64,000 bases of DNA from a phage. This document shows positions 4,735 through 62,386 of the stretch, piece by piece. The position numbers were made by a program, and so were the translations under genes. The stretch's first letter is position 1. Every line of letters starts with the position of its first letter. The notes below the pieces were generated by a model that did not search any database, had not been told where the DNA came from, and worked only from the letters and a program-made list of their open reading frames with translations. Location of the stretch: sequence record PZ452579.1; one strand, 5' to 3'.

Positions 4735-5360
4735 TATAGTAACTCAAAGAATTCTTTGAGGCCTCGTATTGTGTGAACGTGTGATGCCCCACATTTGGGA
4801 CATTTAATAGGGGTTGCCAGATAAATTGATGGCGATACCAAAAGATTTTTAATATTGATCATGTCATCTTCTGTTATAAGGCCGTAAAGGTCGTTTATTT
4901 CCGCTTCAGTTAAATCTTCAACAGGGATGGACTCTCCATTGACAAAAACAGCCTCAATACATGAAGCAATCATTAATGCGATATTTTTATCGTCAAATAA
5001 TTTAGGTTGACGGAACTTAATTTTAATACCACTAAACGAATACCAGGGATCGGCCTGTTCATCCAATTGAGTGTGCAATAAATTCATATAGACTTGAAAT
5101 GAATGCCCACAGGAACAATTCCAGGTGTGTTCTTGATTCACTTCACCTAACGAATGTGCCCACAGATTTACCAACAATAGCTCGGCTTCTTGTTTAGTCA
5201 AGTTTTTAGCATTAGAGCAATTAGTGATAATATTGTTCACTGCTGATTCAATAGTACCGGTAGCCAGCGCACCTATGAGTCCTAAATATTCTTTTAAAGT
5301 AAAGGCTCTACAATTCACTTCTTTATCGCCTAAACGTACGGTAAACGTATATTTGTACAT
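4734..5360 (-). CDS. 26: Baseplate hub protein gp26
   Basis: 208 aa as in T4; position between 25 and 51. Confidence 0.85.
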   Translation of the reverse strand: MYKYTFTVRLGDKEVNCRAFTLKEYLGLIGALATGTIESAVNNIITNCSNAKNLTKQEAELLLVNLWAHSLGEVNQEHTWNCSCGHSFQVYMNLLHTQLDEQADPWYSFSGIKIKFRQPKLFDDKNIALMIASCIEAVFVNGESIPVEDLTEAEINDLYGLITEDDMINIKNLLVSPSIYLATPIKCPKCGASHVHTIRGLKEFFELL

Positions 5361-5378
5361 GTTAACTCCTTTATTGTG

Positions 5379-5386
5379 TATTTATA
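5379..5386 (-). promoter_or_regulatory. T4 late promoter for genes 26-25 (overlaps the divergent gene 51 late promoter)
   Basis: tatttata on + strand, 19 nt upstream of gene 26 ATG. Confidence 0.6.
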
Positions 5387-5390
5387 AATA
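5383..5390 (+). promoter_or_regulatory. T4 late promoter for gene 51
   Basis: TATAAATA 18 nt upstream of gene 51 ATG. Confidence 0.6.
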
Positions 5391-5407
5391 ATAGAAAAGG
5401 AGTAATT

Positions 5408-6160
5408 ATGGCTAATATAATTCGTTGTAAATTACCGGATGGTGTTCATCGTTTCAAGCCGTTCACCGTGGCGGATTATAGAGACTTTTTACTAGTTAGA
5501 AATGATATCGAACATCGTTCGCCACAAGAACAAAAAGAAATAATTGCCGATCTGATTGATGATTATTTTAACGAATACCCTAAAACATGGCAACCATTTA
5601 TATTCCTGCAAGTTTTTGCAGGCTCTATAGGCAAAACAAAAGTTCCCGTTATTTTCACTTGCCCTAAATGCTCTAAAGAAAAAACTGCACCATTTGAGAT
5701 ATATCAAAAAGAACTAGTCGAACCTGAACTTGATGTTGCTGGTATAAAAATACGTTTTTCTTTCCCTGAAAAGTTTTATGACAACAAGGCATTAATGATA
5801 AGTGAAAACATAAAAGAAATATATTATAATGATGAATGGTACCCATGGAATGATTTGACTGAAGAGAACCAAATCCAAGTAATAGAAGCAATAGACATTG
5901 ACTCGCTCGAGAAGGTTATTGCTTCTATGAACCCTATTAATTTGACCCTTAGATTAGGTTGTTGTGAACGTCATGTTAAAACATATACTGATATCTTAGA
6001 GGTTTTTAAATTGTTAGTTAACCCTGATGAGATTTTTACATTCTATCAGATAAACCATTCACTAGTAAAGAGTCAATACACATTGGATTCTATTATGCAA
6101 ATGATTCCTGTTGAACGTGGTATTGCTTTAACATTAGTAGAAAAGGACCATAAAAAATGA
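5408..6160 (+). CDS. 51: Baseplate hub assembly protein gp51
   Basis: 250 aa; synteny and size match T4 gp51. Confidence 0.85.
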
Positions 6161-17418: not shown

Positions 17419-17603
17419 TTTAAACCTTTAATAGGAGATAGTTCTTTACCCATACGTATGTCAGAAGTCCCATCAACCCATTGAACAGCATACGCTTCAT
17501 TGATAATTCCAGCGGCGGTTTTAAATTCATGGAGAACTTTAAAAATCATCCCAGGGATTCCAACACCTTTTAATTGGACTGTTTGTGCTATTAAAAATTT
17601 CAT
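17406..17603 (-). CDS. Hypothetical small protein
   Basis: 65-aa ORF with early promoter upstream. Confidence 0.5.
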   Translation of the reverse strand: MKFLIAQTVQLKGVGIPGMIFKVLHEFKTAAGIINEAYAVQWVDGTSDIRMGKELSPIKGLKCLS

Positions 17604-17627
17604 ATTTTTCCACTTACTAAAGAAATC

Positions 17628-17658
17628 ATTATACTCTAATCCGTCCTTGGATGTGAAC
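17628..17658 (-). promoter_or_regulatory. T4-type early promoter (minus): -10 TATAAT, -35 GTTCACA
   Basis: + strand attata - 17 nt - tgtgaac; member of the ccttgg subfamily. Confidence 0.45.
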
Positions 17659-18272
17659 TACTTAACGAAATTAATTTCTACCGGATGAACAACAGGTTGA
17701 GCAGTGATATATTGAGTAATTGCTTTCATGACTAGAGCTTCAGAACCAGGATTTTTCTCAACGAATTCACATGCTTGGTTATGAGCTTCAAGTTCACTTA
17801 GTAAACCACTTCGTTGGCATCCACGGTCTTGAGTACCCTGTTCAGATAAAAAGACGACGTTGTATTTTTCATCGTCATACGGTTTAGACGGTTGAGCAAA
17901 TGTTCCTTTACTTCCAAAAGGAGAGTTATGACGCCACATCACGCCGTGAGGAGTTTCAACCTTCGTATATTCATGCGGGCCATTTTTCTTAGTTTCTTGA
18001 TGTGGAACTTCGTAGACCTTAGGGTTAGGACATTCAATAAAATGCTCATCTAAATCAGTCGAGAATATTAAAGAAAAACAATTACTGAATTTACCAACAC
18101 CTGCCTGATAAATTTTACCTTCAGAAGTTCTAATTTCACAAACCGAGCCGGCATCAGTAACTTCTAAAACTTCAAAAGGCTCAATAAGGTCATATGAGAA
18201 CATGTTTTTAAGGCGTGGAGTAATATCCCCATTTTTAAAATTCATTTTATAAAAAGTATTAACTTTAAACAT
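17658..18272 (-). CDS. Hypothetical protein (30.x region)
   Basis: 204-aa ORF. Confidence 0.6.
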   Translation of the reverse strand: MFKVNTFYKMNFKNGDITPRLKNMFSYDLIEPFEVLEVTDAGSVCEIRTSEGKIYQAGVGKFSNCFSLIFSTDLDEHFIECPNPKVYEVPHQETKKNGPHEYTKVETPHGVMWRHNSPFGSKGTFAQPSKPYDDEKYNVVFLSEQGTQDRGCQRSGLLSELEAHNQACEFVEKNPGSEALVMKAITQYITAQPVVHPVEINFVK

Positions 18273-20792: not shown

Positions 20793-21363
20793 AAAAGTTT
20801 CGGATTTGTTCCCAATTCAGAGAACGAAGATTATTACGAGAGTACTGAATTACTTCAATACCAGCTTGTTTTAGAATGTCAGCCCAATTTTCAGGAGATC
20901 TGTCATATAATTCTGCGTATACAACCTTTTTAATACCTGACTGTGTAATAGCTTTAGTGCAATCAGGACATGGAGAAAGCGTCGTATATAACGTAGCACC
21001 TTCAATAGAATTACCTTTACGAGCTGCAAACAAAATTGCATTCAATTCTGCATGGATTTCATTATTAGCAGACCATGCACTATGAGCGGCCCGATGTTCT
21101 TTAGCCAAAACAAAATTATCTGCCCGTCCAAATGCTGTAGTGCCTTCTTTATGACCAGCAACGATGACCGGGCTTGGTTTATTCTTCAACCAGCCGTTTT
21201 CGGATGCATGTTCGCAACAGTTAACACCACCTGAAGGAGAGCCATTATAACCTGTAGAAATAATGCGTCCATCTTTTTCAATGACCGCACCTACTTTCCA
21301 TGAACAACATTTTGATTCTTGAGAAATCAAATAAGCAATTTGAAGATATGTGCTAGCTTTCAT
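20782..21363 (-). CDS. cd: dCMP deaminase
   Basis: 193 aa; zinc deaminase motifs HAELNAI and PCPDCTKAI; synteny. Confidence 0.93.
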   Translation of the reverse strand: MKASTYLQIAYLISQESKCCSWKVGAVIEKDGRIISTGYNGSPSGGVNCCEHASENGWLKNKPSPVIVAGHKEGTTAFGRADNFVLAKEHRAAHSAWSANNEIHAELNAILFAARKGNSIEGATLYTTLSPCPDCTKAITQSGIKKVVYAELYDRSPENWADILKQAGIEVIQYSRNNLRSLNWEQIRNFCGE

Positions 21364-21599
21364 TATAGTGTTCCGTATACGCGAGTTGCTTCAACTAAAC
21401 CGTCACTGCCTAATTTAAGGCTAGTAATCTGGTCACCATCTTTAGGATTAACAATTATGAGAAAAGAACGTGGAGATTCTTGAATAACTCGTAATGTTGC
21501 ATCCTGGAAACGTTCAGACACTTTATTTATGAGTGCTTGAGCAAATTCTTTTACTTTAATCTGAAATTCGTGCACTGTAATTGGGTTTTCACTTAGCAT
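21363..21599 (-). CDS. Hypothetical protein (cd.x)
   Basis: 78-aa ORF with GAGG RBS and early promoter upstream. Confidence 0.6.
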   Translation of the reverse strand: MLSENPITVHEFQIKVKEFAQALINKVSERFQDATLRVIQESPRSFLIIVNPKDGDQITSLKLGSDGLVEATRVYGTL

Positions 21600-21628
21600 T
21601 TCGATTTCCTCATTGTGTTGGTAGAGTC

Positions 21629-21658
21629 ATAGTATCACAACTCCACCATGTTGTAAAC
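21629..21658 (-). promoter_or_regulatory. T4-type early promoter (minus): -35 GTTTACA, -10 TACTAT
   Basis: + strand atagta - 17 nt - tgtaaac. Confidence 0.55.
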
Positions 21659-21660
21659 CA

Positions 21661-21936
21661 TTAAATTGCTTTGCATTCAATTTTTTGTGTACCGAAATTG
21701 ATATCACATTGGATAACTAAATCGCCGTCAAGATCAAATACCACGATGACGTGTGCAGACCCAGGGAGAAGAGTAATAGCAATAGAATCTACTTGGTCCG
21801 GGAGCAAAGCATTGAGTACATGAGTTACTTGAGCATGAACTCTGAGTTCGGCTGCATTATCAAGCACTTCAAACATATTATTAGCAATAATCTGACTGAA
21901 GACTACCTTTACAATTTCAGAATAAGTTGGGAACAT
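21661..21936 (-). CDS. Hypothetical protein (cd.x)
   Basis: 91-aa ORF. Confidence 0.55.
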   Translation of the reverse strand: MFPTYSEIVKVVFSQIIANNMFEVLDNAAELRVHAQVTHVLNALLPDQVDSIAITLLPGSAHVIVVFDLDGDLVIQCDINFGTQKIECKAI

Positions 21937-21943
21937 AATTACC

Positions 21944-22168
21944 TCAGTGTACAGTATTTACTTTAACTCGAACAACAAATTGCTCGGTCGGTTCGCCTAC
22001 AGGAACAAACTCTACATGATATTCGCCTTTGTAACGAGTATTCAGGTCGTTACGAATTTCGGTAAGCTTGTTGATTAATGTAGAACTCATATTAAGTCCC
22101 ACTAGTTTACGAAGCATTTTGTATGCTTCATCTTCGATTTCATGATGTTTATCGTACATAGTTTTCAT
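21944..22168 (-). CDS. Hypothetical protein (cd.x)
   Basis: 74-aa ORF. Confidence 0.55.
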   Translation of the reverse strand: MKTMYDKHHEIEDEAYKMLRKLVGLNMSSTLINKLTEIRNDLNTRYKGEYHVEFVPVGEPTEQFVVRVKVNTVH

Positions 22169-22339
22169 TTAACCATTCAATTGCTTGGACGACGTTATCA
22201 AATATACCGCCGCCCAAACGTTCTTCATGCTCATAGTCCAGCACATCAATACCGAACTGTCCATTTACTAAAGGCCAGGCTACAAACAAATATTCTTTAT
22301 GCTGTTCGATGGCCTCAATCACTTCATATAATCGTTTCA

Positions 22340-23426: not shown

Positions 23427-23427
<1 letters not shown>

Positions 23428-23726
23428 TATTTTATTCCTAAGAAAGTTTCAAGAATACGAATGTTATGCTCGCGCCGGTCTTTATTAATTTCAGCAACGT
23501 TTTTATTAATTGACGTACTTCTAACGTTTGAAGAAATAAATTTAATCATATGACTTTTGAGTTGTTGCAAATCCAAACCTTTTTCTTTAGCAGCTTTACG
23601 AAGAGCTTTACCTGCTTCATCTAGGGCCTTTGCTGCATCTTTATCATAATTGACAAGTGACATTCCACGGCAGATATCAATATACTCATCTGACCGTTTG
23701 ATGTAATTCTCTAGTAATATTTTCAT
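23427..23726 (-). CDS. Hypothetical protein
   Basis: 99-aa ORF with GAGG RBS and early promoter upstream. Confidence 0.55.
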
Positions 23727-31515: not shown

Positions 31516-31863
31516 TCAATACGGTTTAGCATCAAATTTTCTTTCAATTTCAGGCGTGAAATATAATTCTTTACCACGCTTAGAAAAGCGACCGATAATA
31601 TGATAATTATTTTCGTCGAACGTGATATTACCGAGGTCCATAGCTTTTAACCAATCATCAATACTTCTGTGCAGTTTTATATCAAAATTCCAGTATTGAG
31701 AACTATTACCGCGGATACTACAAGCAGATTCAGTAAAACAACTACTATAAATCTTGTCTTTAGGAACTACTAATTGATAAACACCTTTAATAAACTGAGG
31801 ACCTTGCCACTTTGGCTGTTTCGCATCTTCTTCTAATAGAATAGGGTAATAATTAAAATTCAT
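31516..31863 (-). CDS. Hypothetical protein inserted between frd and td
   Basis: 115-aa ORF; in T4 frd and td abut, so this is extra relative to T4. Confidence 0.6.
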   Translation of the reverse strand: MNFNYYPILLEEDAKQPKWQGPQFIKGVYQLVVPKDKIYSSCFTESACSIRGNSSQYWNFDIKLHRSIDDWLKAMDLGNITFDENNYHIIGRFSKRGKELYFTPEIERKFDAKPY

Positions 31864-42496: not shown

Positions 42497-45400
42497 ATGG
42501 CTACTTTAAAACAAATACAATTTAAAAGAAGCAAAACTGCAGGAGCACGTCCTGCCGCTTCAGTATTAGCCGAAGGTGAATTGGCTATAAACTTAAAAGA
42601 CCGTGTACTTTTTACTAAAGATGACCAAGGAAATATTATTGATCTGGGTTTTGCTAAAGGCGGTAGTATTGACGGGAATGTTATTCATACAGGCAATTAT
42701 AACCAAACTGGCGATTATACTTTAAATGGCGTCTTCACCCAGACTGGTAATTTTAATTTAACTGGTATTGCTCGAGTAACTCGCGATATTATTGCCGCTG
42801 GGCAGATTATGACTGAAGGCGGAGAACTTATTACAAAAAGTTCAGGTACAGCACATGTTCGTTTTCATGATTCGGCTGATCGTGAACGTGGCATTATTTA
42901 TGCACCGGCTAATGATGGATTAACTACGCAAGTAGTTAATATCCGCGTTAAAGACTACGCCGCTGGTGATGAAAGCACCTATGCATTTTCGGGCAGTGGA
43001 CTATTTACTTCACCTGAAGTGTCAGCATGGAAATCTATGTCAACTCCTCAGATTTTGACAAATAGAGTTATTACTAATAATAAATCTACGAGCGATTATG
43101 ACATTTATTCTATGGCAGACAACGTTCCATTGTCTGAAAGCACTACTGCTATTAATCATCTCCGTGTTATGCGCAATGCTGTAGGCGCTGGTGTATTCCA
43201 TGAAGTTAAAGATAATGATGGAATAACTTGGTATACTGGAGATGGCTTAGACACTTATCTTTGGTCGTTTACCTGGTCCGGTGGATTGAAAGCAGGCCAT
43301 TCTATTTCTGTTGGTACTCCTGGTGGCAATAAAGGATACTCTGAATTAGGGACTGCTTCAATTTCTCTTGGCGATAATGATACCGGGCTAAAATGGCATC
43401 AGGATGGATATTATTTCAGCGTCAATAATGGAACGAAAACATTTTTATTTAGTCCCAACGAAACAACTAGCCTAAGAAAATTTGTAGCTGGATATTCTAC
43501 TACCGGAACCGATTTAACTACTCCTCCAACTGAAAACTATGCTTTGGCCACTGTTGTTACTTACCATGATAATAACGCGTTTGGAGACGGTCAGACTCTT
43601 TTAGGATATTATCAAGGCGGTAACTATCATCATTATTTTCGCGGTAAGGGTACTACAAACATTAATACTCACGGCGGTTTGTTAGTTACTCCAGGTAATA
43701 TTGATGTTATTGGCGGTTCTGTTAATATCGATGGTAGAAATAATGCTTCTACACTGATGTTTAGAGGTAACACAACTGGTAGTAGTTCAGTTGATAATAT
43801 GACAATTTCTGTGTGGGGTAATACGTTTACTAATCCTAGTGTAGGTGATCGTAAAAACGTCATGGAAATTTCTGATGCAACTGGTTGGATGAGCTATATT
43901 CAAAGACTTACAACAGGTGAAGTAGAAATGAACGTTAACGGTTCATTTGAATCATCTGGTGTTACTGCTGGAAATAGAGGAGTTCACACAACAGGTGAAA
44001 TTTCATCTGGAGCAGTGAATGCGCTTCGCATTTGGAATGCAGATTATGGAGCTATTTTTAGACGTTCAGAAGGAAGTCTTCATATTATTCCAACTGCTTA
44101 TGGTGAAGGCAAAAATGGTGATATCGGTCCACTTCGCCCGTTTAGTATGGCTTTAGATACCGGTAAAGTTACTATTCCAGATTTACAATCAAGTTACAAT
44201 ACGTTCGCTGCGAACGGCTATATTAAATTTGTTGGTCATGGAGCGGGTGCCGGCGGTTATGACATTCAATATGCTCAAGCGGCTCCTATTTTCCAGGAAA
44301 TTGATGACGATGCTGTAAGCAAATATTATCCGATTGTTAAGCAGAAGTTTTTAAACGGTAAAGCAGTTTGGTCTTTAGGTACTGAAATTAATTCGGGTAC
44401 ATTCGTTATTCATCATCTGAAAGAAGATGGTTCACAAGGACATACATCTCGTTTTAATCAAGACGGTACAGTTAATTTCCCTGATAATGTTCAGGTTGGT
44501 GGTGGTGAAGCTACTATTGCTCGCAACGGTAATATTTTCTCTGATATTTGGAAAACGTTTACTTCTGCAGGTGATGTAACTAATACCCATGACGCTATTG
44601 CTACTCGTGTTGCCAAAGAAGGTGATACGATGACCGGGCGCTTAACTCTTAATGCAAACTCGGATGCTATTGTTATTAACAGTGCTGCAACCGAATCTGG
44701 TTATGTGAAAGGACAAAAAGCAGGCGTTGATAACTGGTATGTAGGTAATGGTGGGGCTGATAATGCTATATCGTTTTATAGTTTCCGAACTAATTCAGGC
44801 ATATATGTTAATAATGGCGGTGATATTGCTTTAAACCCGGAAGGGTCTGCTACTTTTAATTTTAATAGGGATCGAATTTATATAAATGGGTCAGTCTGGA
44901 CCGCACACCAGGCTGGCGATTGGGGAAATCAATGGCGCCAGGAAGCTCCTGTATTTGTGGATTTTGGTAATGTCGGTAATGATAGTTATTATCCTATTAT
45001 TAAAGGAAAATCTGGTATTACTAATGAAGGTTATATATCTGGTGTAGATTTTGGTATGCGCCGTATCACTAATACATGGGCACAAGGTATTATTCGTGTA
45101 GGCAACCAGGAAGGCGATTCTGACCCACAAGCGATCTATGAATTCCACCACAATGGAGTTATGTATGTTCCTAACATGGTTAAAACCGGAGCAAGATTAT
45201 CGGCTGGCGGTGGTGACCCGGTGTGGACTGGACCATGTCTTGTTATTGGTGATAATGATACCGGATTAGTTCATGGTGGTGATGGGCGAATTAACATGGT
45301 TGCAAATGGAGTGCATATTGCTTCGTGGTCTTCATCTTATCATTCTCATCCTGGCCTTTGGGATTCAAACGGTGCTTTGTGGACAGAAGTTGGCAAAGCA

Positions 45401-45808
45401 GTTATTTCTCATGGTCATTTAGTTCAGGCGAATGACAACTATTCAACATATGTCCGCGATGTTTATGTCCGCTCTGATATTCGTGTTAAAAAGAACCTCG
45501 TTAAATTTGAAAATGCTTCTGAGAAGCTTTCTAAAATTAACGGTTACACTTATATACAGAAGCGAGGCCTAGATGAAGAAGGTAATCAGAAATGGGAACC
45601 AAACGCTGGGTTAATTGCTCAAGAAGTTCAAGCTATTTTACCTGAATTAGTTGAAGGTGATCAGGATGGTGAAGCTTTACTTCGTTTGAACTATAACGGT
45701 GTAATTGGTTTAAATACAGCTGCAATCAATGAGCATACTGCAGAAATTGCAGAACTTAAGTCAGAGATTGAAGAGCTTAAAAAATTAGTTAAATCATTGT
45801 TAAAATAA
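42497..45808 (+). CDS. 37: Long tail fiber distal subunit gp37 with C-terminal intramolecular chaperone domain
   Basis: 1103 aa; C-terminal ~110 aa carry an S|DxRxK autoproteolysis motif ([10 protein letters not shown]) and coiled-coil tail, as in T2-type gp37. Confidence 0.9.
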
Positions 45809-45813
45809 TAAGA

Positions 45814-45827
45814 GGGGCTTCGGCCCC
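45814..45827 (+). other. Intercistronic GGGGC-UUCG-GCCCC hairpin between genes 37 and 38
   Basis: ggggcttcggcccc directly before the GGAGG RBS of gene 38. Confidence 0.55.
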
Positions 45828-45839
45828 TTGGAGGTTTAT

Positions 45840-46613
45840 ATGGCAGTTGAAGGACCGTGGGTAGGATGGTCTGCAAGGGTACAGACTGGAGATCCTTGGA
45901 TGGGTGGTGCCGCACAGAGATTGAGAATGGGAATTCCGTTTTGGATGAGTAATATGATAGGTCGATCTGTTGAAGTAATTCACACACTTGGAGCAGACCA
46001 TAACTTCAATGGTCAATGGTTCCGAGATAGATGTTTTGAGGCAGGTAGTGCACCTATAGTGTTTAATATCACTGGAAATTTAGTATCATATAGTAAAGAT
46101 GTTCCATTATTCTTTATGTATGGCGATACACCAAATGAATATGTTACTTTGAATATTCACGGTGGAGTTCATATGTGGGGACGAGGTGGTAACGGTACTG
46201 TAAACGGAAACCCAGGCACAAATGGCGGCGATGTAATCCAAAATGATATCGGCGGAAGACTTCGTATTTGGAACTATGGCGTTATTGCATCAGGCGGCGG
46301 CGGTGGTGGTGCAATGTCGTTACAGAATAGCTGGGCGCCAAATGCTACAGCAGGTGGCGGTGGTGGTAGACCATTTGGCCTCGGCGGAGGCGGCGTTAAT
46401 TGGCCGGGTGGTAATGCTAGTTATGACGCCCCGGGCGGTGCCGGTTACACTTCCCAATTCGGCGGAGGCAATGGCGGTGATGCTGGAGGTCGTGGCGGAG
46501 ACGGATGGGGTAATCACTTATCTAGATCTGGCGGTGGTGCTCCTGGCAGAGCAGTATTCGGAAGTTCACCGTCATGGGGTGCTACAGGCACAATCTACGG
46601 CTCCTGGATTTAA
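45840..46613 (+). CDS. 38: gp38 receptor-recognizing adhesin (T2/T6 type) with glycine-rich motifs
   Basis: 257 aa from ATG at 45840 (GGAGG RBS); conserved N-terminus ([35 protein letters not shown]) and poly-Gly islands separating variable segments. Confidence 0.9.
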
Positions 46614-47318: not shown

Positions 47319-47591
47319 TTAGTTGTTAGAATACATCGTCAAATGGCGATAAATATTTTCAAAACCTTCATTGAATTCACTAATCAGTGTTTTCTTTTCT
47401 TCGGCAGTTAAATTTGTAATTAGTTTTCTGAACGAATTCTGATTTAGCTGCCGACCATCTTTTTTAATTCCAATCTCATTCAAGAATCCGATGAAATTTG
47501 CTCGGTCTTCAACAATATCTTCCCTCGAGAATTTAATCAAAATAGAAGCAACCGTAATAATTTCACGTACAATTTCAATATCTTTATTCAT
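47319..47591 (-). CDS. asiA: AsiA anti-sigma70 factor
   Basis: 90 aa; near-identical to T4 AsiA (MNKDIEIVREIITVASILIKFSREDIVE...). Confidence 0.95.
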   Translation of the reverse strand: MNKDIEIVREIITVASILIKFSREDIVEDRANFIGFLNEIGIKKDGRQLNQNSFRKLITNLTAEEKKTLISEFNEGFENIYRHLTMYSNN

Positions 47592-49452: not shown

Positions 49453-50085
49453 TCACAGTACGTTAGTTACAAGGGTAATGATTTCTTTGGACACATTAGG
49501 GAAGTCAATATAAGTATATTTACCACCGATCTTAATCTTAACATCATTTTCAAGAGAAGTAAACAGCTTTGATTCAGTTTCTGACATGTTGTATGCAAAG
49601 ATTCTAAGAGCGCCATCTCGACGAATTTCGATCTGACGAATACCTAGAACTCGTTTTGCAAATCGAACTTCCAAGTTACTACGGTTTTCACCAATTTCCT
49701 TAACTTCAACTTTATCTTTAATATTTTCAAAAACAAAGTTTGCTAATTCATGCATTTCAGGAGTAACTCCACGTGCTTTTCTAGTGTTACGTTTCTGAAG
49801 AAGTTCTGGAGCGTTTTCTTGGGCAAAGAGGTCTGCAGCTTTTTGGATAATATCCATTGCTTCGCCTGTTGCTACAAGTCCATCACCGGATTTTTCGACT
49901 AAACCTTTCTTAATCAATACACCAATGTTAGAGTTAACAACTGATGCATTGTATTCCGCTTCCAGAGCTTCACGGACATTGGCAGCAGTGGTGAAGTTGT
50001 TCTTAATGATATAAACCATTATTGCAGCAGTTTTTTCATTCAGAGCGTTTTCAGAAGCTTTGATGATGTAAGTAACTTTAGACAT
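49453..50085 (-). CDS. motA: MotA middle-transcription activator
   Basis: 210 aa; matches T4 MotA (MSKVTYIIKAS...VLIKKGLVEKSGDGL...). Confidence 0.95.
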   Translation of the reverse strand: MSKVTYIIKASENALNEKTAAIMVYIIKNNFTTAANVREALEAEYNASVVNSNIGVLIKKGLVEKSGDGLVATGEAMDIIQKAADLFAQENAPELLQKRNTRKARGVTPEMHELANFVFENIKDKVEVKEIGENRSNLEVRFAKRVLGIRQIEIRRDGALRIFAYNMSETESKLFTSLENDVKIKIGGKYTYIDFPNVSKEIITLVTNVL

Positions 50086-50270: not shown

Positions 50271-51596
50271 TCAAAGTGCCTCCAAGTCTTTAGTGTACTC
50301 TGTCACAACATCAGTAGACTTCCAATACTCATTTTCTTCTTTCTTAGCTTTAGCTTCTTCTGCCAGTTTACGTGCTTCGTCGGAAGTGATATGGAAGATG
50401 TTAAGACCTACCAGTTTATCGACATGTTCTTTATACATTTCGATTTGTGCTAGCTCTTCAGTCAAAGCTTTACGAGTCTTGCCCTGAATCACAATTTCGC
50501 CACTGATAACTTTTTTGATGAAGTGTGCCTTAGCAAAAGCAAGTTTAAATGCTTTTTCAGATTCAAGGATTTTGTTGTCAATACGTTTCTGAACGTAAGT
50601 CTTACGGACTTCAACAAAATCTTTGATTAAGTCCACTACGTTATCGTAGACCGCTAATTTACCCTTTTCATTAATCACTGTGATGTTTTGTGAACGACGT
50701 TCGATGAGACTGAAATCTTTCATGATTTTTTCATGACGTAGCTCTTCATCATCAGGAAGCGAGTACTCTTTACGGAACTTCACCTTAAACCCAAAGCCGT
50801 GTTCACCGCAATCATCTTCCCATGAGATTAGACCTTTATCTTCCAACGGGTCGAGAACCTTACTCACATACGTTTCACGGTCGAATTTATATGGGATTTC
50901 AGTTATCTGCATTTGAGTGCGAGATGTGAACTTATATGTTCCGTGAATCTCATAACGCCCATCAACTTCATGTACTTCACCACGGAATTCCGGGAATTCA
51001 ACTTTTGGCTTAGTGACATTTTTACCTTGAAGAGCTTGTAATACAGCCTTTTTGACTGATTTAAAACTATGAGGCAGAATATTTGTTGCGTAACCGGTTG
51101 CAATACCAGAGACACCATTCAAAAGAACTGTCGGAATAATAGGAAGATAGAATTTTGGTGGAATATGTTCTTTATCTTCATGAGCTGGAGCATATTCAGT
51201 ATCTTTATATACGTTATAGAAATTTTTACTTACACGAGCAAAAATATAACGAGATGCTGCAGCTTTTTGGACTGTTCTAGAACCAAAGTTGCCTTGGCCA
51301 TCTAACAGTGGATAGTTGTTGTTCCATGTGTTAGCCATTAATGCACCTGCATCTTGTGCAGAAGATTCACCATGGTGATAACCTAAATCTGCAACACCGC
51401 CTGCAATTGACGCAAGTTTATGAAATTTTTCTTTATTACCACGAGCCAAATCTAACGCACGATGAACCACAAAACGTTGAACCGGCTTAAATCCATCAAT
51501 CATGTTTGGGATTGCACGGTTTTCAACGGTGTACATCGCATATGCTAAGGCTTCGTTATCAATAATACTTTTTAGATTACGAGAATTCAATTGCAT
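50271..51596 (-). CDS. 52: DNA topoisomerase II medium subunit gp52 (GyrA-like)
   Basis: 441 aa (T4 442 aa); GyrA-type N-terminal domain; synteny. Confidence 0.93.
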   Translation of the reverse strand: MQLNSRNLKSIIDNEALAYAMYTVENRAIPNMIDGFKPVQRFVVHRALDLARGNKEKFHKLASIAGGVADLGYHHGESSAQDAGALMANTWNNNYPLLDGQGNFGSRTVQKAAASRYIFARVSKNFYNVYKDTEYAPAHEDKEHIPPKFYLPIIPTVLLNGVSGIATGYATNILPHSFKSVKKAVLQALQGKNVTKPKVEFPEFRGEVHEVDGRYEIHGTYKFTSRTQMQITEIPYKFDRETYVSKVLDPLEDKGLISWEDDCGEHGFGFKVKFRKEYSLPDDEELRHEKIMKDFSLIERRSQNITVINEKGKLAVYDNVVDLIKDFVEVRKTYVQKRIDNKILESEKAFKLAFAKAHFIKKVISGEIVIQGKTRKALTEELAQIEMYKEHVDKLVGLNIFHITSDEARKLAEEAKAKKEENEYWKSTDVVTEYTKDLEAL

Positions 51597-57532: not shown

Positions 57533-58633
57533 TTACGCTGTGAAGATTTTATCCCACATCGCAACAACTGCATCTCGGTTATACTTCTTCCATACTGCTT
57601 CAGCACGTTTAACTCGAGCTTCGTACGTGTCAGTGAATTCTAATACAGCTTTTGTGTAAAGCGCAACTACTTCTTTCTTAGGAGTAGAGGAATCAATTTC
57701 TACACGCACAGTATCTGGGTCGTATTCAAATGTCGCATGAGGATAATCCTTAAAAACTAACTGGATTACAGGGACACCTTTAGAGATGGCTTCAATAGAA
57801 CTATTCTCTACCGTACCTGTGTCAGGACACGTATTAATAAGTGCTTTAGCTGTTTTAAGACGTTCCATGATTTCACTGTGTGGAGCATCAATAATAACAG
57901 GATACTTAGCCGGTGGTGCCCATTTGCTTGGACAATAACCAATACCATTTTCGCCTAGTGCTTTAATCGCTTCAAGAGCAACATCAGTACGACGCATTTT
58001 AGTGTCATAACGTTGTGCACTAATAATCAGATCAGTCGCCGGAAGAACTTCAGGTTTCTCATTCAAACAAATAACCGGATAATCTTCGGCTTCAAACAAC
58101 GGATTTGCTCGCCAATAATCATAATCAATTTTGTCAGTCAGACCTGAAGTCATATGACAATATTTGCGTTCAAATTCACGGAAGGCTTTAGTAGGAGCAT
58201 AACTCTTACCACCATTCTTATGAATTTGAATAGTCTGGTCCCAAATTTGAACAATGCCACGAGATACCGGTTCAAATGGTGTTGCCATAAAATTCTTATG
58301 AACTTTAGAGAGACCTGCGTCTTTAATTGCCTGAACGGTTAGTTTAGTCGGTTCCATAGTAACAACAAAATCGTATTCATGGATGCCGGCTAGTTCAACA
58401 ATCTTACGAGCCATAGTATAACTCATACCTAGACTGAATTTAGTCAGATGACCAACAGGATGATGATTAACTTTCCAATCACCAAATGTGTCATTATCAA
58501 AACCGATATAATCAATATCGGCACCAATAGAAACTAAATATTTCAACACATTTAAATGTACTGCTTCAAGACCACCTTGTACACGGTCAGGATTAAATGG
58601 GACTGCACGAGATGGGATAAACATAACTTTCAT
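57533..58633 (-). CDS. Putative GT-B fold glycosyltransferase (GT4-like), inserted between rIIA.1 and gene 39
   Basis: 366 aa; N-terminal MKVMFIPSRAVPFNPDRVQGGLE and C-terminal ENSSIEAISKGVPVIQL resembling GT4 donor-binding motifs; fold assignment is motif-based only. Confidence 0.55.
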   Translation of the reverse strand: MKVMFIPSRAVPFNPDRVQGGLEAVHLNVLKYLVSIGADIDYIGFDNDTFGDWKVNHHPVGHLTKFSLGMSYTMARKIVELAGIHEYDFVVTMEPTKLTVQAIKDAGLSKVHKNFMATPFEPVSRGIVQIWDQTIQIHKNGGKSYAPTKAFREFERKYCHMTSGLTDKIDYDYWRANPLFEAEDYPVICLNEKPEVLPATDLIISAQRYDTKMRRTDVALEAIKALGENGIGYCPSKWAPPAKYPVIIDAPHSEIMERLKTAKALINTCPDTGTVENSSIEAISKGVPVIQLVFKDYPHATFEYDPDTVRVEIDSSTPKKEVVALYTKAVLEFTDTYEARVKRAEAVWKKYNRDAVVAMWDKIFTA

Positions 58634-58659: not shown

Positions 58660-58677
58660 AAGCTCCCGAAGGAGCTT
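58660..58677 (-). other. UUCG-tetraloop hairpin overlapping the gene 39 stop codon
   Basis: aagctcc cgaa ggagctt. Confidence 0.5.
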
Positions 58678-60493
58678 AGGACATCCATTCTTTACGAAGT
58701 TCTGAATCATCACCCATCAACATTTCAAAGAGTTCTTTCCAATTTTCAGGAAGTTTAACTACGTCGTACACAGGGTTCTGAATCATTTCACGATATTCTG
58801 ACTTTTCAAGGGAGCCTAATCCCTTGATGTATCGAATACTATGCTTAGGAAGCGTATCTTTAACTTCTTCATACTCAGCTACAGTATAAAACCATTTTTG
58901 AGTTTTGCCAATTTGTGCAATAATTACAGGTGTTTTAACAAAGCGAATACGTCCTTGTTCAAACAATTCAGGCCAATTACTAAAGAAAGCAAGCAAAGCC
59001 GGATAGATACTTCCAAGACCGTCATGATCGGCATCGGTCATAATTGCAATATTACGATAGTTCGTATTCTCTGCCTTTTCACCAAGAATAAGACCCGTGA
59101 TAGCACAGATATCAAAGAGCTCTTTGTTCTTCATCATATCAGCATATGACATACCCCAGCTATTCATCACCTTACCACGTAATGGGAATCCACCGTGTAG
59201 TTCACGGTCACGAACATCAATGAGATAACCAATTGCCGAATCACCTTCTGTTAAGAACAATGTCGTATCTGCATCTTTACCACATTGGTTAGCTTTAATA
59301 TGCTTATGAACCTTAGCTTTAGTTGCCTTTTTAGCTGCTTTAGTTTCTGCAGCCTTTTCTGCCGCCAATTTACGAGCTAATGCGGCTTCAACAATAGGCA
59401 TAATCAAGGCTTCGTTTTTAAGAAGTGCCTGAGCAATTTTCTTAGCATCTAATTGGATATGATTACGAATATCACCATACGTTGACGTTAAACGTTCTTT
59501 AGTCTGAGAATCAAAACGCATGTTGCTCATGTCTCTAATAAACATCAACATTGTGAGACATTCTTTAACACGAGCTTTAGTGACTTCAATACCCTTATAT
59601 TTCTTTTTAATACCGGGCAAAAGATGTTCGCAGATATCATCCATTACACATTCAACATGATGACCACCATTTTTAGTATGGATGTTATTCACATAAGTTA
59701 AATGACGGAAGCCATCTGGTGATGTTGTGAATGCTATAGAGACTTTATCATTTTCTTGAATGATGTTATCTTCACCAAATTGTTTAGCAAATCGTTTAAA
59801 ATTACCATCAACCTTTTTACCATTAAATGTGAACTTGATATCAGGATAAACGACTGCCAATGTTTGAAGTCGGTCTAAAGTAATATCTAAATAAATTTGA
59901 GATAAATTATGCTCTTCAAATGAAGTGAAATCAGGAGTGAAGATTACTTTAGTGCCTTTACCTTTAGATTTCTTAGAAGACCATGATTTGTTTTCCATTC
60001 CGTTTGAACAGTTAACAGTGATTTCATTTTCGCCATCTGACGTGATGCCTGTAAACAACGTAGAGAAGATATTAGTTAAACTACTCCCGACGCCGTTCAT
60101 ACCACCAGTCTTGCGTTCAGAGTCATCACCAAAGTTACCACCGGCCTTTGGAATAGTCCAGGCTGCTACAGGCCCAGGAATTTGTTCACCTGTTTGGTCG
60201 GTAACTAAACCTTGAGGAATACCACGTCCGTTATCTTCCACCGAAACTTGATTATTTTTAATTTGCACATCAATTTTATTTGCAAACTTAAATGACGTAC
60301 GAATAGCTTCATCAACCGAGTTGTCAATAATCTCATCGATTAATTTAACCAGACCAGGAACATATTCAACTTGTTGATATTTACCAAACAAAAAACGCTC
60401 ATGTGCTTCTTTAGCAGAAGAACCAATATACATACCACTACGTTTCTTAATATGTTCTACATCTGATAATACCTTAATTTCATTTTTAATCAT
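58676..60493 (-). CDS. 39: DNA topoisomerase II large subunit gp39, uninterrupted GyrB-like form
   Basis: 605 aa; GHKL ATPase motif IIDNSVDEA, TOPRIM EGDSA and DADHDG; full length in one ORF with no gene 60 or bypass element. Confidence 0.95.
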   Translation of the reverse strand: MIKNEIKVLSDVEHIKKRSGMYIGSSAKEAHERFLFGKYQQVEYVPGLVKLIDEIIDNSVDEAIRTSFKFANKIDVQIKNNQVSVEDNGRGIPQGLVTDQTGEQIPGPVAAWTIPKAGGNFGDDSERKTGGMNGVGSSLTNIFSTLFTGITSDGENEITVNCSNGMENKSWSSKKSKGKGTKVIFTPDFTSFEEHNLSQIYLDITLDRLQTLAVVYPDIKFTFNGKKVDGNFKRFAKQFGEDNIIQENDKVSIAFTTSPDGFRHLTYVNNIHTKNGGHHVECVMDDICEHLLPGIKKKYKGIEVTKARVKECLTMLMFIRDMSNMRFDSQTKERLTSTYGDIRNHIQLDAKKIAQALLKNEALIMPIVEAALARKLAAEKAAETKAAKKATKAKVHKHIKANQCGKDADTTLFLTEGDSAIGYLIDVRDRELHGGFPLRGKVMNSWGMSYADMMKNKELFDICAITGLILGEKAENTNYRNIAIMTDADHDGLGSIYPALLAFFSNWPELFEQGRIRFVKTPVIIAQIGKTQKWFYTVAEYEEVKDTLPKHSIRYIKGLGSLEKSEYREMIQNPVYDVVKLPENWKELFEMLMGDDSELRKEWMS

Positions 60494-60515
60494 GTTGTCT
60501 CCTCGTTATGAAGGT

Positions 60516-60540
60516 ATTCTATCATCCGAAATCTAAAGCA
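60516..60540 (-). promoter_or_regulatory. MotA-dependent middle promoter for gene 39
   Basis: Minus strand TGCTTTA - 12 nt - TAGAAT, then GAGGAG RBS. Confidence 0.5.
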
Positions 60541-60556
60541 AAAAGGGCCGAAGCCC
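60541..60556 (-). terminator. UUCG-tetraloop hairpin terminator upstream of the gene 39 promoter
   Basis: gggc cgaa gccc; minus RNA hairpin followed by UUUU. Confidence 0.55.
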
Positions 60557-60982
60557 TTATTTAAATTTAATTTTCTGAAGTGCATCAATTGCAGCCAAAC
60601 GCCCTTGTTCACTTTTAACTGTAATGACTACATCGCCTGATACGATCACCGAACCATCAACAAATTCTATAGAGCCTTTTTTGAAATCGACAGCTGTATC
60701 TGGTTCCGGAACTTCTTCAAAGAATTTAAATTCTGCACCATAAAGCAGAATATCACCTTGCATACTATGAATAGTTCGGCCGTAATCGCCTACGGCTTCT
60801 ACAGCAATAATCGAAACGCCGTAACCAATCATCTCTTCCACAATAAAATCTTTGGACAATAAAGTAGTATGCAGATTAGTATTAAGACGTTTACCAGTCG
60901 TATTAAGAATTCTCAAGAAATTATCTTCCTGTCCTTTGATAATACGATATTTCTTACCAACTTCAAAACCTTTAAAAGCCAT
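60557..60982 (-). CDS. Hypothetical protein (39.1/39.2 position)
   Basis: 141-aa ORF. Confidence 0.6.
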   Translation of the reverse strand: MAFKGFEVGKKYRIIKGQEDNFLRILNTTGKRLNTNLHTTLLSKDFIVEEMIGYGVSIIAVEAVGDYGRTIHSMQGDILLYGAEFKFFEEVPEPDTAVDFKKGSIEFVDGSVIVSGDVVITVKSEQGRLAAIDALQKIKFK

Positions 60983-61862: not shown

Positions 61863-62386
61863 CATTTTAGCAAAATAAAATCAACTTGTTCTGCCAATGA
61901 ACGTCTGAACATTAATTGACAACTTCCGAGGATGAAATCAGGTGCTTCATAGACCGCGATGTAGTATCCTTTAGCTTTCAAGAGTTCAACATCCACCTGG
62001 TCATCAAACCATGCATAAACCGCGTCAACACTTTCAAATCCAAAATAGAACCCTTGAGCCCAATCTTCACTCAATTCAAATGTATGCTCAATTCTATAGT
62101 ATCTTAAGATATTTTGTTCAAGGAGTTTGTCTTCATTTACTGTAGGACGATTAGGGACATTATAGTTGTCGCCGTGATGGTAGAAGTTACCTGAGAGTAT
62201 TCCATGCTTATCAAGGAACTCCCATGTTTCTTCAGAGTTGTCGGTGCCCGACCAACCGTATGGCGAACGAGGTTCTTTATTCCAAGAGGTTTCCCAAATT
62301 CTGACGGCTTTACCGTCTTCGATAGCAATTCCTGGTAATGATTCACGTTGAGTACAAAAACTACGTTCTACGCGGTAAACTAACAT
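61862..62386 (-). CDS. Hypothetical protein
   Basis: 174-aa ORF. Confidence 0.6.
   Translation of the reverse strand: MLVYRVERSFCTQRESLPGIAIEDGKAVRIWETSWNKEPRSPYGWSGTDNSEETWEFLDKHGILSGNFYHHGDNYNVPNRPTVNEDKLLEQNILRYYRIEHTFELSEDWAQGFYFGFESVDAVYAWFDDQVDVELLKAKGYYIAVYEAPDFILGSCQLMFRRSLAEQVDFILLK

What the first reader, a model, noticed from the sequence alone, without database searches (positions are those of the whole stretch)
58676..60540. Gene 39 is intact and T2-like: no gene 60, no translational bypass element, no mobA
One 605-aa ORF encodes the complete GyrB-like subunit (GHKL ATPase plus TOPRIM). In T4 the equivalent coding sequence is split into 39 and 60 with an inserted mobA homing endonuclease gene and a 50-nt bypass element. 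This points to the ancestral, uninvaded arrangement and to T2/T6-type lineage. A MotA box plus -10 sits directly upstream.
Basis: partly seen in the sequence, partly recalled or inferred. Interest (0 to 1): 0.45.

Follow-up and report, generated by a model that had tools for sequence, protein, structure and literature searches.

The report
Ordinary unsplit phage topoisomerase gene 39
This is the normal, unsplit gene for the large subunit of a T4-like phage's DNA topoisomerase II, preceded by its usual middle-stage promoter; the split form in phage T4 is the rare exception, and this phage is an RB69-type (Mosigvirus), not a T2/T6-type.

Summary
A single 605-aa ORF on the minus strand (58676-60493) encodes a complete GyrB-like topoisomerase II large subunit. 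Residues 1-474 match T4 gp39 (79% identity) and residues 473-605 match T4 gp60 (87%). There is no gap, no mobA gene, no 50-nt bypass insert, and no leftover T4-type extension peptides.

A consensus MotA box (TTTTGCTTTA), a 12-nt spacer and a -10 element (TAGAAT) lie upstream. They occupy the same position as the experimentally mapped T4 middle promoter P39.

The lineage inference is wrong. The gene is 97.6% identical in DNA to RB69 gene 39 and only 75.7% identical to T2. The window is 98-99% identical to Mosigvirus genomes and carries the RB69-specific putative arabinosyltransferase gene next to gene 39.

An unsplit gene 39 is not a lineage marker. The junction region is contiguous in 1931 of 2011 phage records, while the T4 cassette is present in 41. 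RB69's GenBank note already states the comparison with T4, and T6/T4 enzyme structures are solved.

The finding is already known and of low interest.

One side observation is mildly interesting. Some relatives carry a different Mob-family HNH endonuclease at the last codons of gene 39, with a flanking sequence tract shared across genera. This window has that site empty.

The parts
58676..60493 (-). Gene 39: unsplit topoisomerase II large subunit, 605 aa (GHKL ATPase, transducer, TOPRIM)
   Evidence: ORF list. Pfam domains. Full-length match to the solved T6 gp39 structure 8ylu_C. Colinear with T4 gp39+gp60 and T2 gp39.
59924..60355 (-). GHKL ATP-binding domain (aa 47-190), with N-box E54/N58, DNGRG at 87 and GMNGVG at 131
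   Evidence: Pfam HATPase_c, E 3e-11. Motif positions.
59339..59749 (-). Transducer domain (aa 249-385), with the QTK loop at aa 330
   Evidence: Pfam DNA_gyraseB, E 2.7e-14. Motif position.
59234..59248 (-). Toprim EGDSA motif (aa 416-420)
   Evidence: Motif search. PDB alignments to ParE, GyrB and Topo II Toprim domains over aa 400-604.
59021..59035 (-). Toprim DxDxD motif DADHD (aa 487-491). In T4 this motif is encoded on gp60, just before the bypass take-off codon.
59018..59073 (-). Unoccupied equivalent of the T4 MobA-cassette insertion interval. The 5' break falls after gene nt 1421. The 3' junction lies between codon 492 (GGT) and codon 493 (CTT), where T4 has the 50-nt gap.
   Evidence: Codon-level comparison with T2 gene 39 and T4 gene 60. 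Insertion limits as described in bioRxiv 10.1101/2022.08.31.505936.
58682..58936 (-). C-terminal region associated with TOPRIM (aa 520-604), homologous to the C-terminal part of T4 gp60
   Evidence: Pfam TOPRIM_C, 28.0 bits against a 29-bit cut-off. 87% identity to gp60.
60534..60543 (-). MotA box TTTTGCTTTA, a perfect match to the consensus (a/t)(a/t)(a/t)TGCTTtA
   Evidence: Sequence. Pattern enrichment. Consensus definition (PMC2988021). Identical in RB69, F27 and ChristianSchoenbein, and positionally equivalent to T4 P39.
60516..60521 (-). [quoted passage not shown]
   Evidence: T4 P39 start site 5349 lies 7 nt after its TATAAT (PMC2988021 Table 1). The start site in this phage is inferred, not measured.
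60499..60504 (-). Shine-Dalgarno GAGGAG, 5 nt before the ATG
   Evidence: Read directly from the sequence.
60543..60558 (-). UUCG-loop hairpin plus T-run after the upstream ORF (60557-60982). It is terminator-like, and its T-run overlaps the A/T part of the MotA box.
   Evidence: Terminator scan. Fold -9.4 kcal/mol, z -1.46, so weak on its own. The same layout occurs in T4 and T2.
58660..58677 (-). UUCG-loop hairpin overlapping the gene 39 stop codon (terminator-like or RNA-stabilising)
   Evidence: Terminator scan. Fold -11.4 kcal/mol, z -2.03.
58679..58687 (-). Unoccupied site (TGG ATG | TCC) where 28 other phage records carry a 265-aa Mob-family HNH/NUMOD3 homing endonuclease gene
   Evidence: Junction comparison with vB_Eco_F27. 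Distribution. Allele comparison.
50271..51596 (-). Gene 52: the GyrA-like partner subunit (441 aa) needed to form the holoenzyme
   Evidence: Pfam DNA_topoisoIV, E 6.5e-78. Annotated as the medium subunit in the collinear relative.
49453..50085 (-). motA, the activator that would read the MotA box
   Evidence: Pfam MotA_activ and MotCF.
47319..47591 (-). asiA, the co-activator for sigma appropriation at middle promoters
   Evidence: Pfam AsiA, E 3e-33.

Best explanation
The region is gene 39 of an RB69-type (Mosigvirus) T4-like coliphage. It encodes the unsplit large subunit of the phage type IIA DNA topoisomerase.

The 605-aa protein carries the ATP-binding GHKL domain, the transducer and the metal-binding TOPRIM domain. 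By homology it pairs with the GyrA-like gp52, encoded 7 kb away in the same window, to form an A2B2 enzyme. That enzyme passes one DNA duplex through a transient break in another, using ATP.

Transcription is most likely driven in the middle phase by host RNA polymerase redirected by the phage AsiA and MotA proteins, both encoded in the window. They would act at a consensus MotA box and -10 element 24-53 nt upstream of the ATG. Read-through from upstream genes would be partly limited by a hairpin.

The gene has never acquired, or at least retains no trace of, the MobA homing-endonuclease and bypass cassette that splits the T4 gene into 39 and 60.

Shown here: the ORF, its domains and motifs, its colinearity with relatives, the absence of cassette sequences, the promoter sequence and its conservation, and the lineage. 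Inferred: enzymatic activity, subunit assembly, promoter use and the transcription start.
For: - ORF and domains.
- End-to-end match to the solved T6 gp39, and a two-stretch match to the T4 gp39-gp60 fusion.
- Colinearity with T4 gp39+gp60 and T2 gp39.
- Uninterrupted codons 492/493 at the bypass position.
- No MobA, extension-peptide or cassette similarity in the window.
- Mosigvirus identity: 98-99% to many Mosigvirus genomes; 97.6% nt to RB69 gene 39 against 75.7% to T2; RB69 gene order; neighbouring gene 99.2% identical to RB69 ORF003c.
- Partner gp52, MotA and AsiA are encoded in the window.
- The MotA box and -10 match the published consensus and spacing. They are identical in four Mosigvirus genomes and positionally equivalent to T4 P39, whose start site is mapped at 5349.
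- The unsplit junction is the norm: contiguous in 1931 of 2011 records. The T4 cassette is at least 80% present in only 41 of 50,697 records.
- T6 and T4 enzymes are active and structurally characterised (PMC11461880).
Against: No evidence found here contradicts this. The limits are:
- Pfam TOPRIM_C is 1 bit below its curated cut-off, and the Pfam Toprim model itself did not hit at E<=0.001. The Toprim assignment therefore rests on motifs and PDB alignments.
- Promoter activity and the start site were not measured in this phage.
- The upstream hairpin is not significantly more stable than shuffled sequence (z -1.46).
- Only 64 kb of the genome could be examined for mobA-like genes.
Confidence: 0.95

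Rival explanations
1. One reading: the unsplit gene 39 marks the phage as belonging to the T2/T6 lineage.
For: The protein has the same length as T2 gp39 (605 aa) and is colinear with it at 82.3% identity.
Against: - DNA identity to T2 gene 39 is 75.7%, against 97.6% to RB69. T2 and T4 are 98.3% identical over gp39 residues 1-473.
- All best genome matches are Mosigvirus.
- The RB69-specific ORF003c sits next to the gene and has no counterpart in the rIIA-39 regions fetched from T2 and T4.
- The unsplit state is found in about 96% of records across many genera.
Confidence: 0.02
2. Hit and run: the lineage once carried the MobA cassette and later lost it precisely, or was repaired from an uninvaded relative. 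On this reading the intact state is derived rather than ancestral.
For: Loss of the endonuclease and re-fusion has been reported for an Aeromonas phage clade (bioRxiv 10.1101/2022.08.31.505936). Clean gene conversion from a naive allele would leave no trace.
Against: - The Aeromonas cases retain sequences from the cassette's C-terminal and N-terminal extensions. None are present here.
- Residues 470-492 align without indels to T2.
- No Mosigvirus is among the cassette-bearing records listed.
- The six cassette-bearing genomic clades the preprint names by host list Salmonella, Shewanella, Proteus, Acinetobacter, Aeromonas and close relatives of T4, and the text never mentions RB69 or Mosigvirus.
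Confidence: 0.04
3. The upstream MotA box and -10 are a consensus match with no promoter function, and gene 39 is expressed only by read-through from upstream promoters.
For: Consensus matches are not proof of function. One of the 11 matches in the window lies inside a coding region on the opposite strand (61943-61967). T4 prereplicative genes are also transcribed by extension of early transcripts (PMC2988021).
Against: - The match to the box, spacer and -10 is perfect.
- It lies in an intergenic position 24-53 nt before the ATG.
- It is identical in four Mosigvirus genomes and sits at the same position as T4 P39, whose start site is mapped.
- motA and asiA are present.
- The pattern is about six-fold enriched over shuffles.
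Confidence: 0.08

Closest known systems
RB69 gp39 (NP_861694, DNA topoisomerase II large subunit) and its Mosigvirus orthologues (APCEc01, PhAPEC2, vB_Eco_F31, ChristianSchoenbein)
   Same: - 97.6% nt and 96.2% aa identity to RB69; 98-99% nt to other Mosigvirus genomes.
- Same neighbours: rIIA, rIIA.1, ORF003c, 39, a 141-aa ORF, a 59-aa ORF, goF.
- Identical promoter region.
- RB69's GenBank note already records that T4 splits this subunit.
   Different: The RB69 reference protein differs in residues 13-47. This is due to a cluster of small indels and substitutions in the first ~140 nt of the 2003 record. The window agrees with the other Mosigvirus sequences, so these differences look like record errors.
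T2 / T6 gp39 (T6 enzyme solved by cryo-EM, PDB 8ylu and others; PMC11461880)
   Same: Unsplit two-subunit architecture (gp39 + gp52), 605 aa, all catalytic motifs at equivalent positions, and a full-length alignment.
   Different: Only 82.3% aa and 75.7% nt identity. It belongs to a different genus (Tequatrovirus), and no ORF003c homologue lies between rIIA.1 and gene 39.
T4 gp39 + gp60 with the MobA / 50-nt translational bypass cassette
   Same: The same enzyme. gp39 residues 1-473 and gp60 residues 27-159 align to the window protein. The middle promoter P39 is homologous, with a hairpin, MotA box and -10 in the same layout.
   Different: T4 carries a ~1.05-1.1 kb insertion with four parts: a 43-aa C-terminal extension on gp39, mobA (a pseudogene in lab T4, intact and 272 aa in RB55), a 30-aa N-terminal extension plus a homologous replacement region on gp60, and the 50-nt untranslated gap after GGA-TAG. 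None of these is present here. The T4 MotA box core is AGCTTTA rather than TGCTTTA.
Cellular type IIA topoisomerase B subunits (GyrB, ParE) and eukaryotic Topo II N-terminal halves
   Same: GHKL + transducer + TOPRIM order. Significant alignments to human Topo II alpha and beta (E 1e-60 to 1e-61), yeast Topo II, ParE and GyrB.
   Different: Much shorter than GyrB. By sequence it is closer to eukaryotic Topo II than to gyrase, as the structural paper also reports (PMC11461880).

Membership tests
Type IIA topoisomerase ATPase/TOPRIM subunit (GyrB / ParE / phage gp39) | GHKL ATP-binding fold with N-box, G1 and G2 motifs | tested here: met
   Pfam HATPase_c, E 3e-11. EIIDNSVDE at 54, DNGRG at 87, GMNGVG at 131.
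Type IIA topoisomerase ATPase/TOPRIM subunit (GyrB / ParE / phage gp39) | Transducer domain with the QTK loop lysine | tested here: met
   Pfam DNA_gyraseB, E 2.7e-14. QTK at 330.
Type IIA topoisomerase ATPase/TOPRIM subunit (GyrB / ParE / phage gp39) | TOPRIM domain with a conserved Glu (EGDSA) and a DxD cluster | tested here: met
   EGDSA at 416 and DADHD at 487. PDB Toprim alignments over aa 400-604. Pfam TOPRIM_C scores 28.0 bits, just under the 29-bit cut-off.
Type IIA topoisomerase ATPase/TOPRIM subunit (GyrB / ParE / phage gp39) | A cognate GyrA-like DNA-cleavage subunit encoded by the same genome | tested here: met
   ORF 50271-51596, Pfam DNA_topoisoIV, E 6.5e-78.
Type IIA topoisomerase ATPase/TOPRIM subunit (GyrB / ParE / phage gp39) | ATP-dependent strand-passage activity | not testable with these tools
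   Inferred from 82% identity to T2 gp39 and a full-length match to the solved T6 gp39. The T6 enzyme was shown to be active (PMC11461880).
T4-type split gene 39/60 with the MobA bypass cassette | Large-subunit ORF split in two at about aa 466-491 | tested here: not met
   One continuous ORF. Residues 470-505 align codon for codon with T2.
T4-type split gene 39/60 with the MobA bypass cassette | mobA HNH endonuclease gene or pseudogene between the two halves | tested here: not met
   tblastn and phmmer with RB55 MobA: best E above 1 anywhere in the window. blastn with the cassette finds only the native region homologous to homR.
T4-type split gene 39/60 with the MobA bypass cassette | Cassette-derived C-terminal extension on gp39 and N-terminal extension on gp60 | tested here: not met
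   tblastn with both peptides gives only noise (best E 0.14, and not at the locus).
T4-type split gene 39/60 with the MobA bypass cassette | 50-nt coding gap with matched GGA take-off and landing codons and a stop after take-off | tested here: not met
   Codon 492 is GGT, followed directly by CTT GGA AGT. There is no GGATAG in the gene.
Tequatrovirus (T2/T4/T6 lineage) | High nucleotide identity to T2/T4/T6 at this locus, and a T2-type gene order with rIIA.1 directly followed by gene 39 | tested here: not met
   75.7% nt identity to T2. An ORF003c homologue is inserted between rIIA.1 and gene 39.
Mosigvirus (RB69 lineage) | High nucleotide identity and collinearity with Mosigvirus genomes, and presence of the RB69 ORF003c putative ara-hmC transferase | tested here: met
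   98-99% identity over 2.7 kb to many Mosigvirus records. The 64-kb window is collinear with ChristianSchoenbein at 88-98%. The ORF003c homologue is 99.2% identical.
T4-type MotA-dependent middle promoter | MotA box (a/t)(a/t)(a/t)TGCTTtA placed 12 +/- 1 bp upstream of a sigma-70 -10 element TAnnnT | tested here: met
   TTTTGCTTTA, 12 nt, TAGAAT. Definition from PMC2988021.
T4-type MotA-dependent middle promoter | motA and asiA encoded by the phage | tested here: met
   Pfam MotA_activ/MotCF and AsiA hits at 49453-50085 and 47319-47591.
T4-type MotA-dependent middle promoter | MotA/AsiA-dependent transcription start about 7 nt after the -10 | not testable with these tools
   Supported only by positional homology to T4 P39, whose start is at 5349.

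The most novel reading that the evidence does not exclude
Gene 39 of this phage is a doubly naive homing target. It has an empty MobA site (codons ~474-492). It also has an empty site at its last codons, where 28 other phages carry a different Mob-family HNH/NUMOD3 endonuclease.

That second element appears to have carried about 400 nt of Mosigvirus-type gene 39 sequence into at least one Tequatrovirus genome (fPS-90). This would mean homing-driven exchange between ara-hmC and glucosyl-hmC phage lineages that are thought not to recombine.

If so, this window's allele would be a natural recipient substrate for testing cross-genus homing.
Probability: 0.45. Interest if true: 0.3.

Novelty: already known. 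Interest (0 to 1): 0.1.

Why it matters
It matters little as a discovery. An unsplit gene 39 is the standard arrangement in T4-like phages and is already annotated as such in RB69 and its relatives. The enzyme's structure and activity are published for T6 and T4.

The useful outcomes are corrective:
- The window is an RB69-type Mosigvirus, not a T2/T6-type phage.
- Absence of the MobA cassette should not be used as a lineage marker.

The locus also gives a clean uninvaded reference allele for two different Mob-family homing endonucleases that target this gene in other phages.

Tried and rejected
- A six-sequence MAFFT alignment of gene 39 with the T4 and RB55 39-mobA-60 regions placed the ~1.07-kb gap about 170 nt too far downstream and misaligned the cassette's C-terminal extension against native sequence. 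I replaced it with a codon-level comparison of the junctions.
- Pfam did not report the Toprim model and put TOPRIM_C just under threshold. I relied on motifs and PDB alignments instead.
- I looked for homing endonucleases among 19 window ORFs of unknown function using Pfam, and re-scanned 8 of them plus two further ORFs using PHROGs. None was found.
- The 99-aa ORF at 23427-23726, whose orthologue is annotated 'putative homing endonuclease' in a relative, has no HNH or GIY-YIG signal and falls in a PHROG of unknown function.
- GIY-YIG and other endonuclease classes were not searched exhaustively across all ORFs.
- I did not use the large protein-database searches, structure prediction or metagenome scans. 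Solved structures and hundreds of annotated near-identical genomes already answer the question.
- I considered secondary loss of the cassette and found no supporting relics.
Full report
**What is there.** The interval contains one long ORF on the minus strand, 58676..60493. It starts with ATG at 60493-60491 and encodes 605 aa.

Pfam assigns HATPase_c (aa 47-190), DNA_gyraseB (aa 249-385) and TOPRIM_C (aa 520-604; 28.0 bits against a 29-bit cut-off). All diagnostic motifs of a type IIA topoisomerase B subunit are present:
- GHKL N-box EIIDNSVDE at 54
- DNGRG at 87
- GMNGVG at 131
- QTK loop at 330
- Toprim EGDSA at 416
- Toprim DADHD at 487

Against the PDB, the protein aligns end to end with T6 gp39 (8ylu_C, 1161 bits). 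It aligns in two stretches with the engineered T4 gp39-gp60 fusion (8yo3_C). Weaker matches follow to human and yeast Topo II, ParE and GyrB.

**Comparison with T4, T2 and RB69.** I fetched the annotated rIIA-39 regions of T4, T2, RB69 and RB55. The blastp results are:

| Window residues | Matches | Identity |
|---|---|---|
| 1-474 | T4 gp39 1-473 | 79.1% |
| 473-605 | T4 gp60 27-159 | 87.2% (E 5e-85) |
| 1-605 | T2 gp39 (605 aa, one gap) | 82.3% |

At codon level, the window reads ...ATG ACC GAT GCC GAT CAT GAC GGT | CTT GGA AGT... (codons 485-495). T4 gene 60 has ...GAT CAC GAT GGA, then TAG and the rest of the 50-nt gap, then TTA GGT TCT. The window has no gap, no GGATAG, and no in-frame interruption.

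T4 and RB55 carry roughly 1.05-1.1 kb of extra DNA here. That DNA comprises the gp39 C-terminal extension, mobA, the gp60 N-terminal extension and the bypass.

Several searches of the whole window found only noise: RB55 MobA (272 aa), a related endonuclease from vB_Eco_F27, the T4 extension peptides, and the T4 cassette DNA. The one exception is the expected 45-nt similarity between the cassette's homologous replacement region and the native gene at 59063-59019.

Pfam scans of 19 unknown-function ORFs in the window found no HNH or GIY-YIG domains, and PHROGs scans of 8 of them plus two further ORFs found no endonuclease family.

**Lineage.**
- The 2.7-kb region is 98-99% identical to many Mosigvirus genomes, including vB_Eco_F31, APCEc01, PhAPEC2 and ChristianSchoenbein.
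- Gene 39 is 97.6% identical in DNA to RB69 and 75.7% to T2. T2 and T4 are 98.3% identical over gp39 residues 1-473.
- The whole window is collinear with Mosigvirus ChristianSchoenbein.
- Between rIIA.1 and gene 39 lies a 366-aa gene that is 99.2% identical to RB69 ORF003c. This is the proposed arabinosyl-hmC transferase characteristic of RB69-type phages (PMC6024577). It has no counterpart in the rIIA-39 regions fetched from T2 and T4.

**How common the unsplit state is.** A 110-aa peptide spanning the junction matches 2011 phage records. In 1931 of them the match is contiguous. The T4 cassette is at least 80% present in only 41 of 50,697 records, all T4 or close relatives. Shorter, more divergent matches occur in Salmonella, Proteus and Acinetobacter phages.

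This agrees with Manning and Atkins (bioRxiv 10.1101/2022.08.31.505936). They describe independent MobA insertions in six clades, each with near-identical uninvaded 'parental' relatives. The unsplit arrangement is therefore the shared default and not a marker of any lineage.

A 'hit and run' history cannot be formally excluded, but it has left no relics of the kind reported for Aeromonas phages.

**Promoter.** On the gene strand the upstream region reads:

TAA-AAGGGC-TTCG-GCCCTT-TTTGCTTTA-GATTTCGGATGA-TAGAAT-ACCTTCATAAC-GAGGAG-ACAAC-ATG

- TTTTGCTTTA (60543-60534) is a perfect match to the MotA-box consensus (a/t)(a/t)(a/t)TGCTTtA.
- It lies 12 nt from TAGAAT (60521-60516), which fits the published rule of 12 +/- 1 bp from a TAnnnT -10 element (PMC2988021).
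- The pattern occurs 11 times in the window against 1.74 expected.
- The region is identical in RB69, F27 and ChristianSchoenbein. T4 and T2 have the same layout: a UUCG hairpin, then TTTAGCTTTA, then TATAAT.
- T4's middle promoter P39 has a mapped start at position 5349 (PMC2988021 Table 1). That is 7 nt after the T4 TATAAT, so the window element is its positional homologue. The start site here is probably near 60509 (inferred).
- motA, asiA and the partner subunit gene 52 are all in the window.
- UUCG-loop hairpins flank the gene on both sides.

**Mechanism.** By homology with the T6 and T4 enzymes (PMC11461880), gp39 dimerises through its ATPase domains. It supplies the metal-binding TOPRIM half of the cleavage site and assembles with gp52 into an A2B2 type IIA topoisomerase. 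Nothing in the sequence suggests a departure from this. The activity is inferred, not tested.

**Side observations.**
- In vB_Eco_F27 and 27 other records, a 265-aa Mob-family HNH/NUMOD3 endonuclease gene sits at the extreme 3' end of gene 39. Its first 71 aa are 60.6% identical to MobA.
- The insertion lies between TGGATG and TCCTAA. Endonuclease-positive alleles end ...LQRDEYKE...GNDPELRKDWMLG instead of ...LEKSEYRE...GDDSELRKEWMS.
- In the Tequatrovirus fPS-90, the first ~1400 nt of gene 39 are T2-like and the last ~400 nt are 97-100% identical to Mosigvirus F27. This looks like a co-conversion tract moved across genera. The window carries the empty allele.
- Relative to ChristianSchoenbein, the window lacks a 330-aa 'putative aldolase' gene and has an extra 115-aa ORF between td and frd.
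- The RB69 reference record has a cluster of small indels and substitutions in the first ~140 nt of gene 39 that garble residues 13-47.

**Verdict.** The feature is already known and ordinary.

Noticed in passing
window 58679-58687; L002 (vB_Eco_F27) 1877-2674; L009 (fPS-90) 2201-2998; L010 (phi25-307) 2201-2998: A 265-aa Mob-family HNH/NUMOD3 homing endonuclease occupies the last codons of gene 39 in 28 phage records from both Mosigvirus and Tequatrovirus. Its N-terminal 71 aa are 60.6% identical to MobA. It is linked to a recoded gp39 C-terminus (...LQRDEYKE...GNDPELRKDWMLG). The window has the empty allele.
   Followed up: partly
L009 (Yersinia phage fPS-90) 384-2201, compared with L003 (T2) and L002 (F27): Gene 39 of the Tequatrovirus fPS-90 is chimeric. 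About 1400 nt at the 5' end are T2-like (97-100%). The last ~400 nt are 97-100% identical to Mosigvirus F27. This looks like a co-conversion tract carried across genera with the endonuclease.
   Followed up: partly
window 57533-58633 (-): The gene immediately downstream of gene 39 is 99.2% identical to RB69 ORF003c, the proposed arabinosyl-hmC transferase. It has no Pfam hit and falls in phrog_8302. It marks the phage as RB69-type with probable ara-hmC DNA.
   Followed up: partly
window ~21348-21366, against L005 (ChristianSchoenbein) 21200-22192: The window lacks the 330-aa 'putative aldolase' gene that the relative carries next to dCMP deaminase. There is no tblastn hit anywhere in the window.
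   Followed up: partly
window 31516-31863 (-): There is an extra 115-aa ORF between thymidylate synthase and dihydrofolate reductase that is absent from ChristianSchoenbein. It falls in phrog_1928 (unknown function) and has no Pfam hit.
   Followed up: partly
window 17432-18266 and 43059-45920: These segments diverge from ChristianSchoenbein. The first holds a 204-aa ORF (17658-18272, phrog_17531, unknown function). The second is the distal part of the long tail fibre gene 37, which either finds no megablast match or reaches only 88% identity. That is consistent with host-range variation.
   Followed up: no
L004 (RB69 NC_004928) 5340-5483: The RB69 reference record has a cluster of small indels and substitutions in the first ~140 nt of gene 39. 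They give an aberrant residue 13-47 stretch relative to the window and F27, and are probably errors in the old record.
   Followed up: partly
window 23427-23726 (-): This 99-aa ORF has an orthologue annotated 'putative homing endonuclease' in ChristianSchoenbein. It shows no HNH or GIY-YIG Pfam signal and falls in a PHROG of unknown function (phrog_2364), so the annotation looks unsupported.
   Followed up: partly
window 60557-60982 (-) and 17658-18272 (-): The 141-aa ORF upstream of gene 39 (phrog_622) has a weak C-terminal match to a goF-annotated family (phrog_13003). The 204-aa ORF at 17658-18272 also weakly hits phrog_622. This suggests a small paralogous family of unknown function.
   Followed up: no
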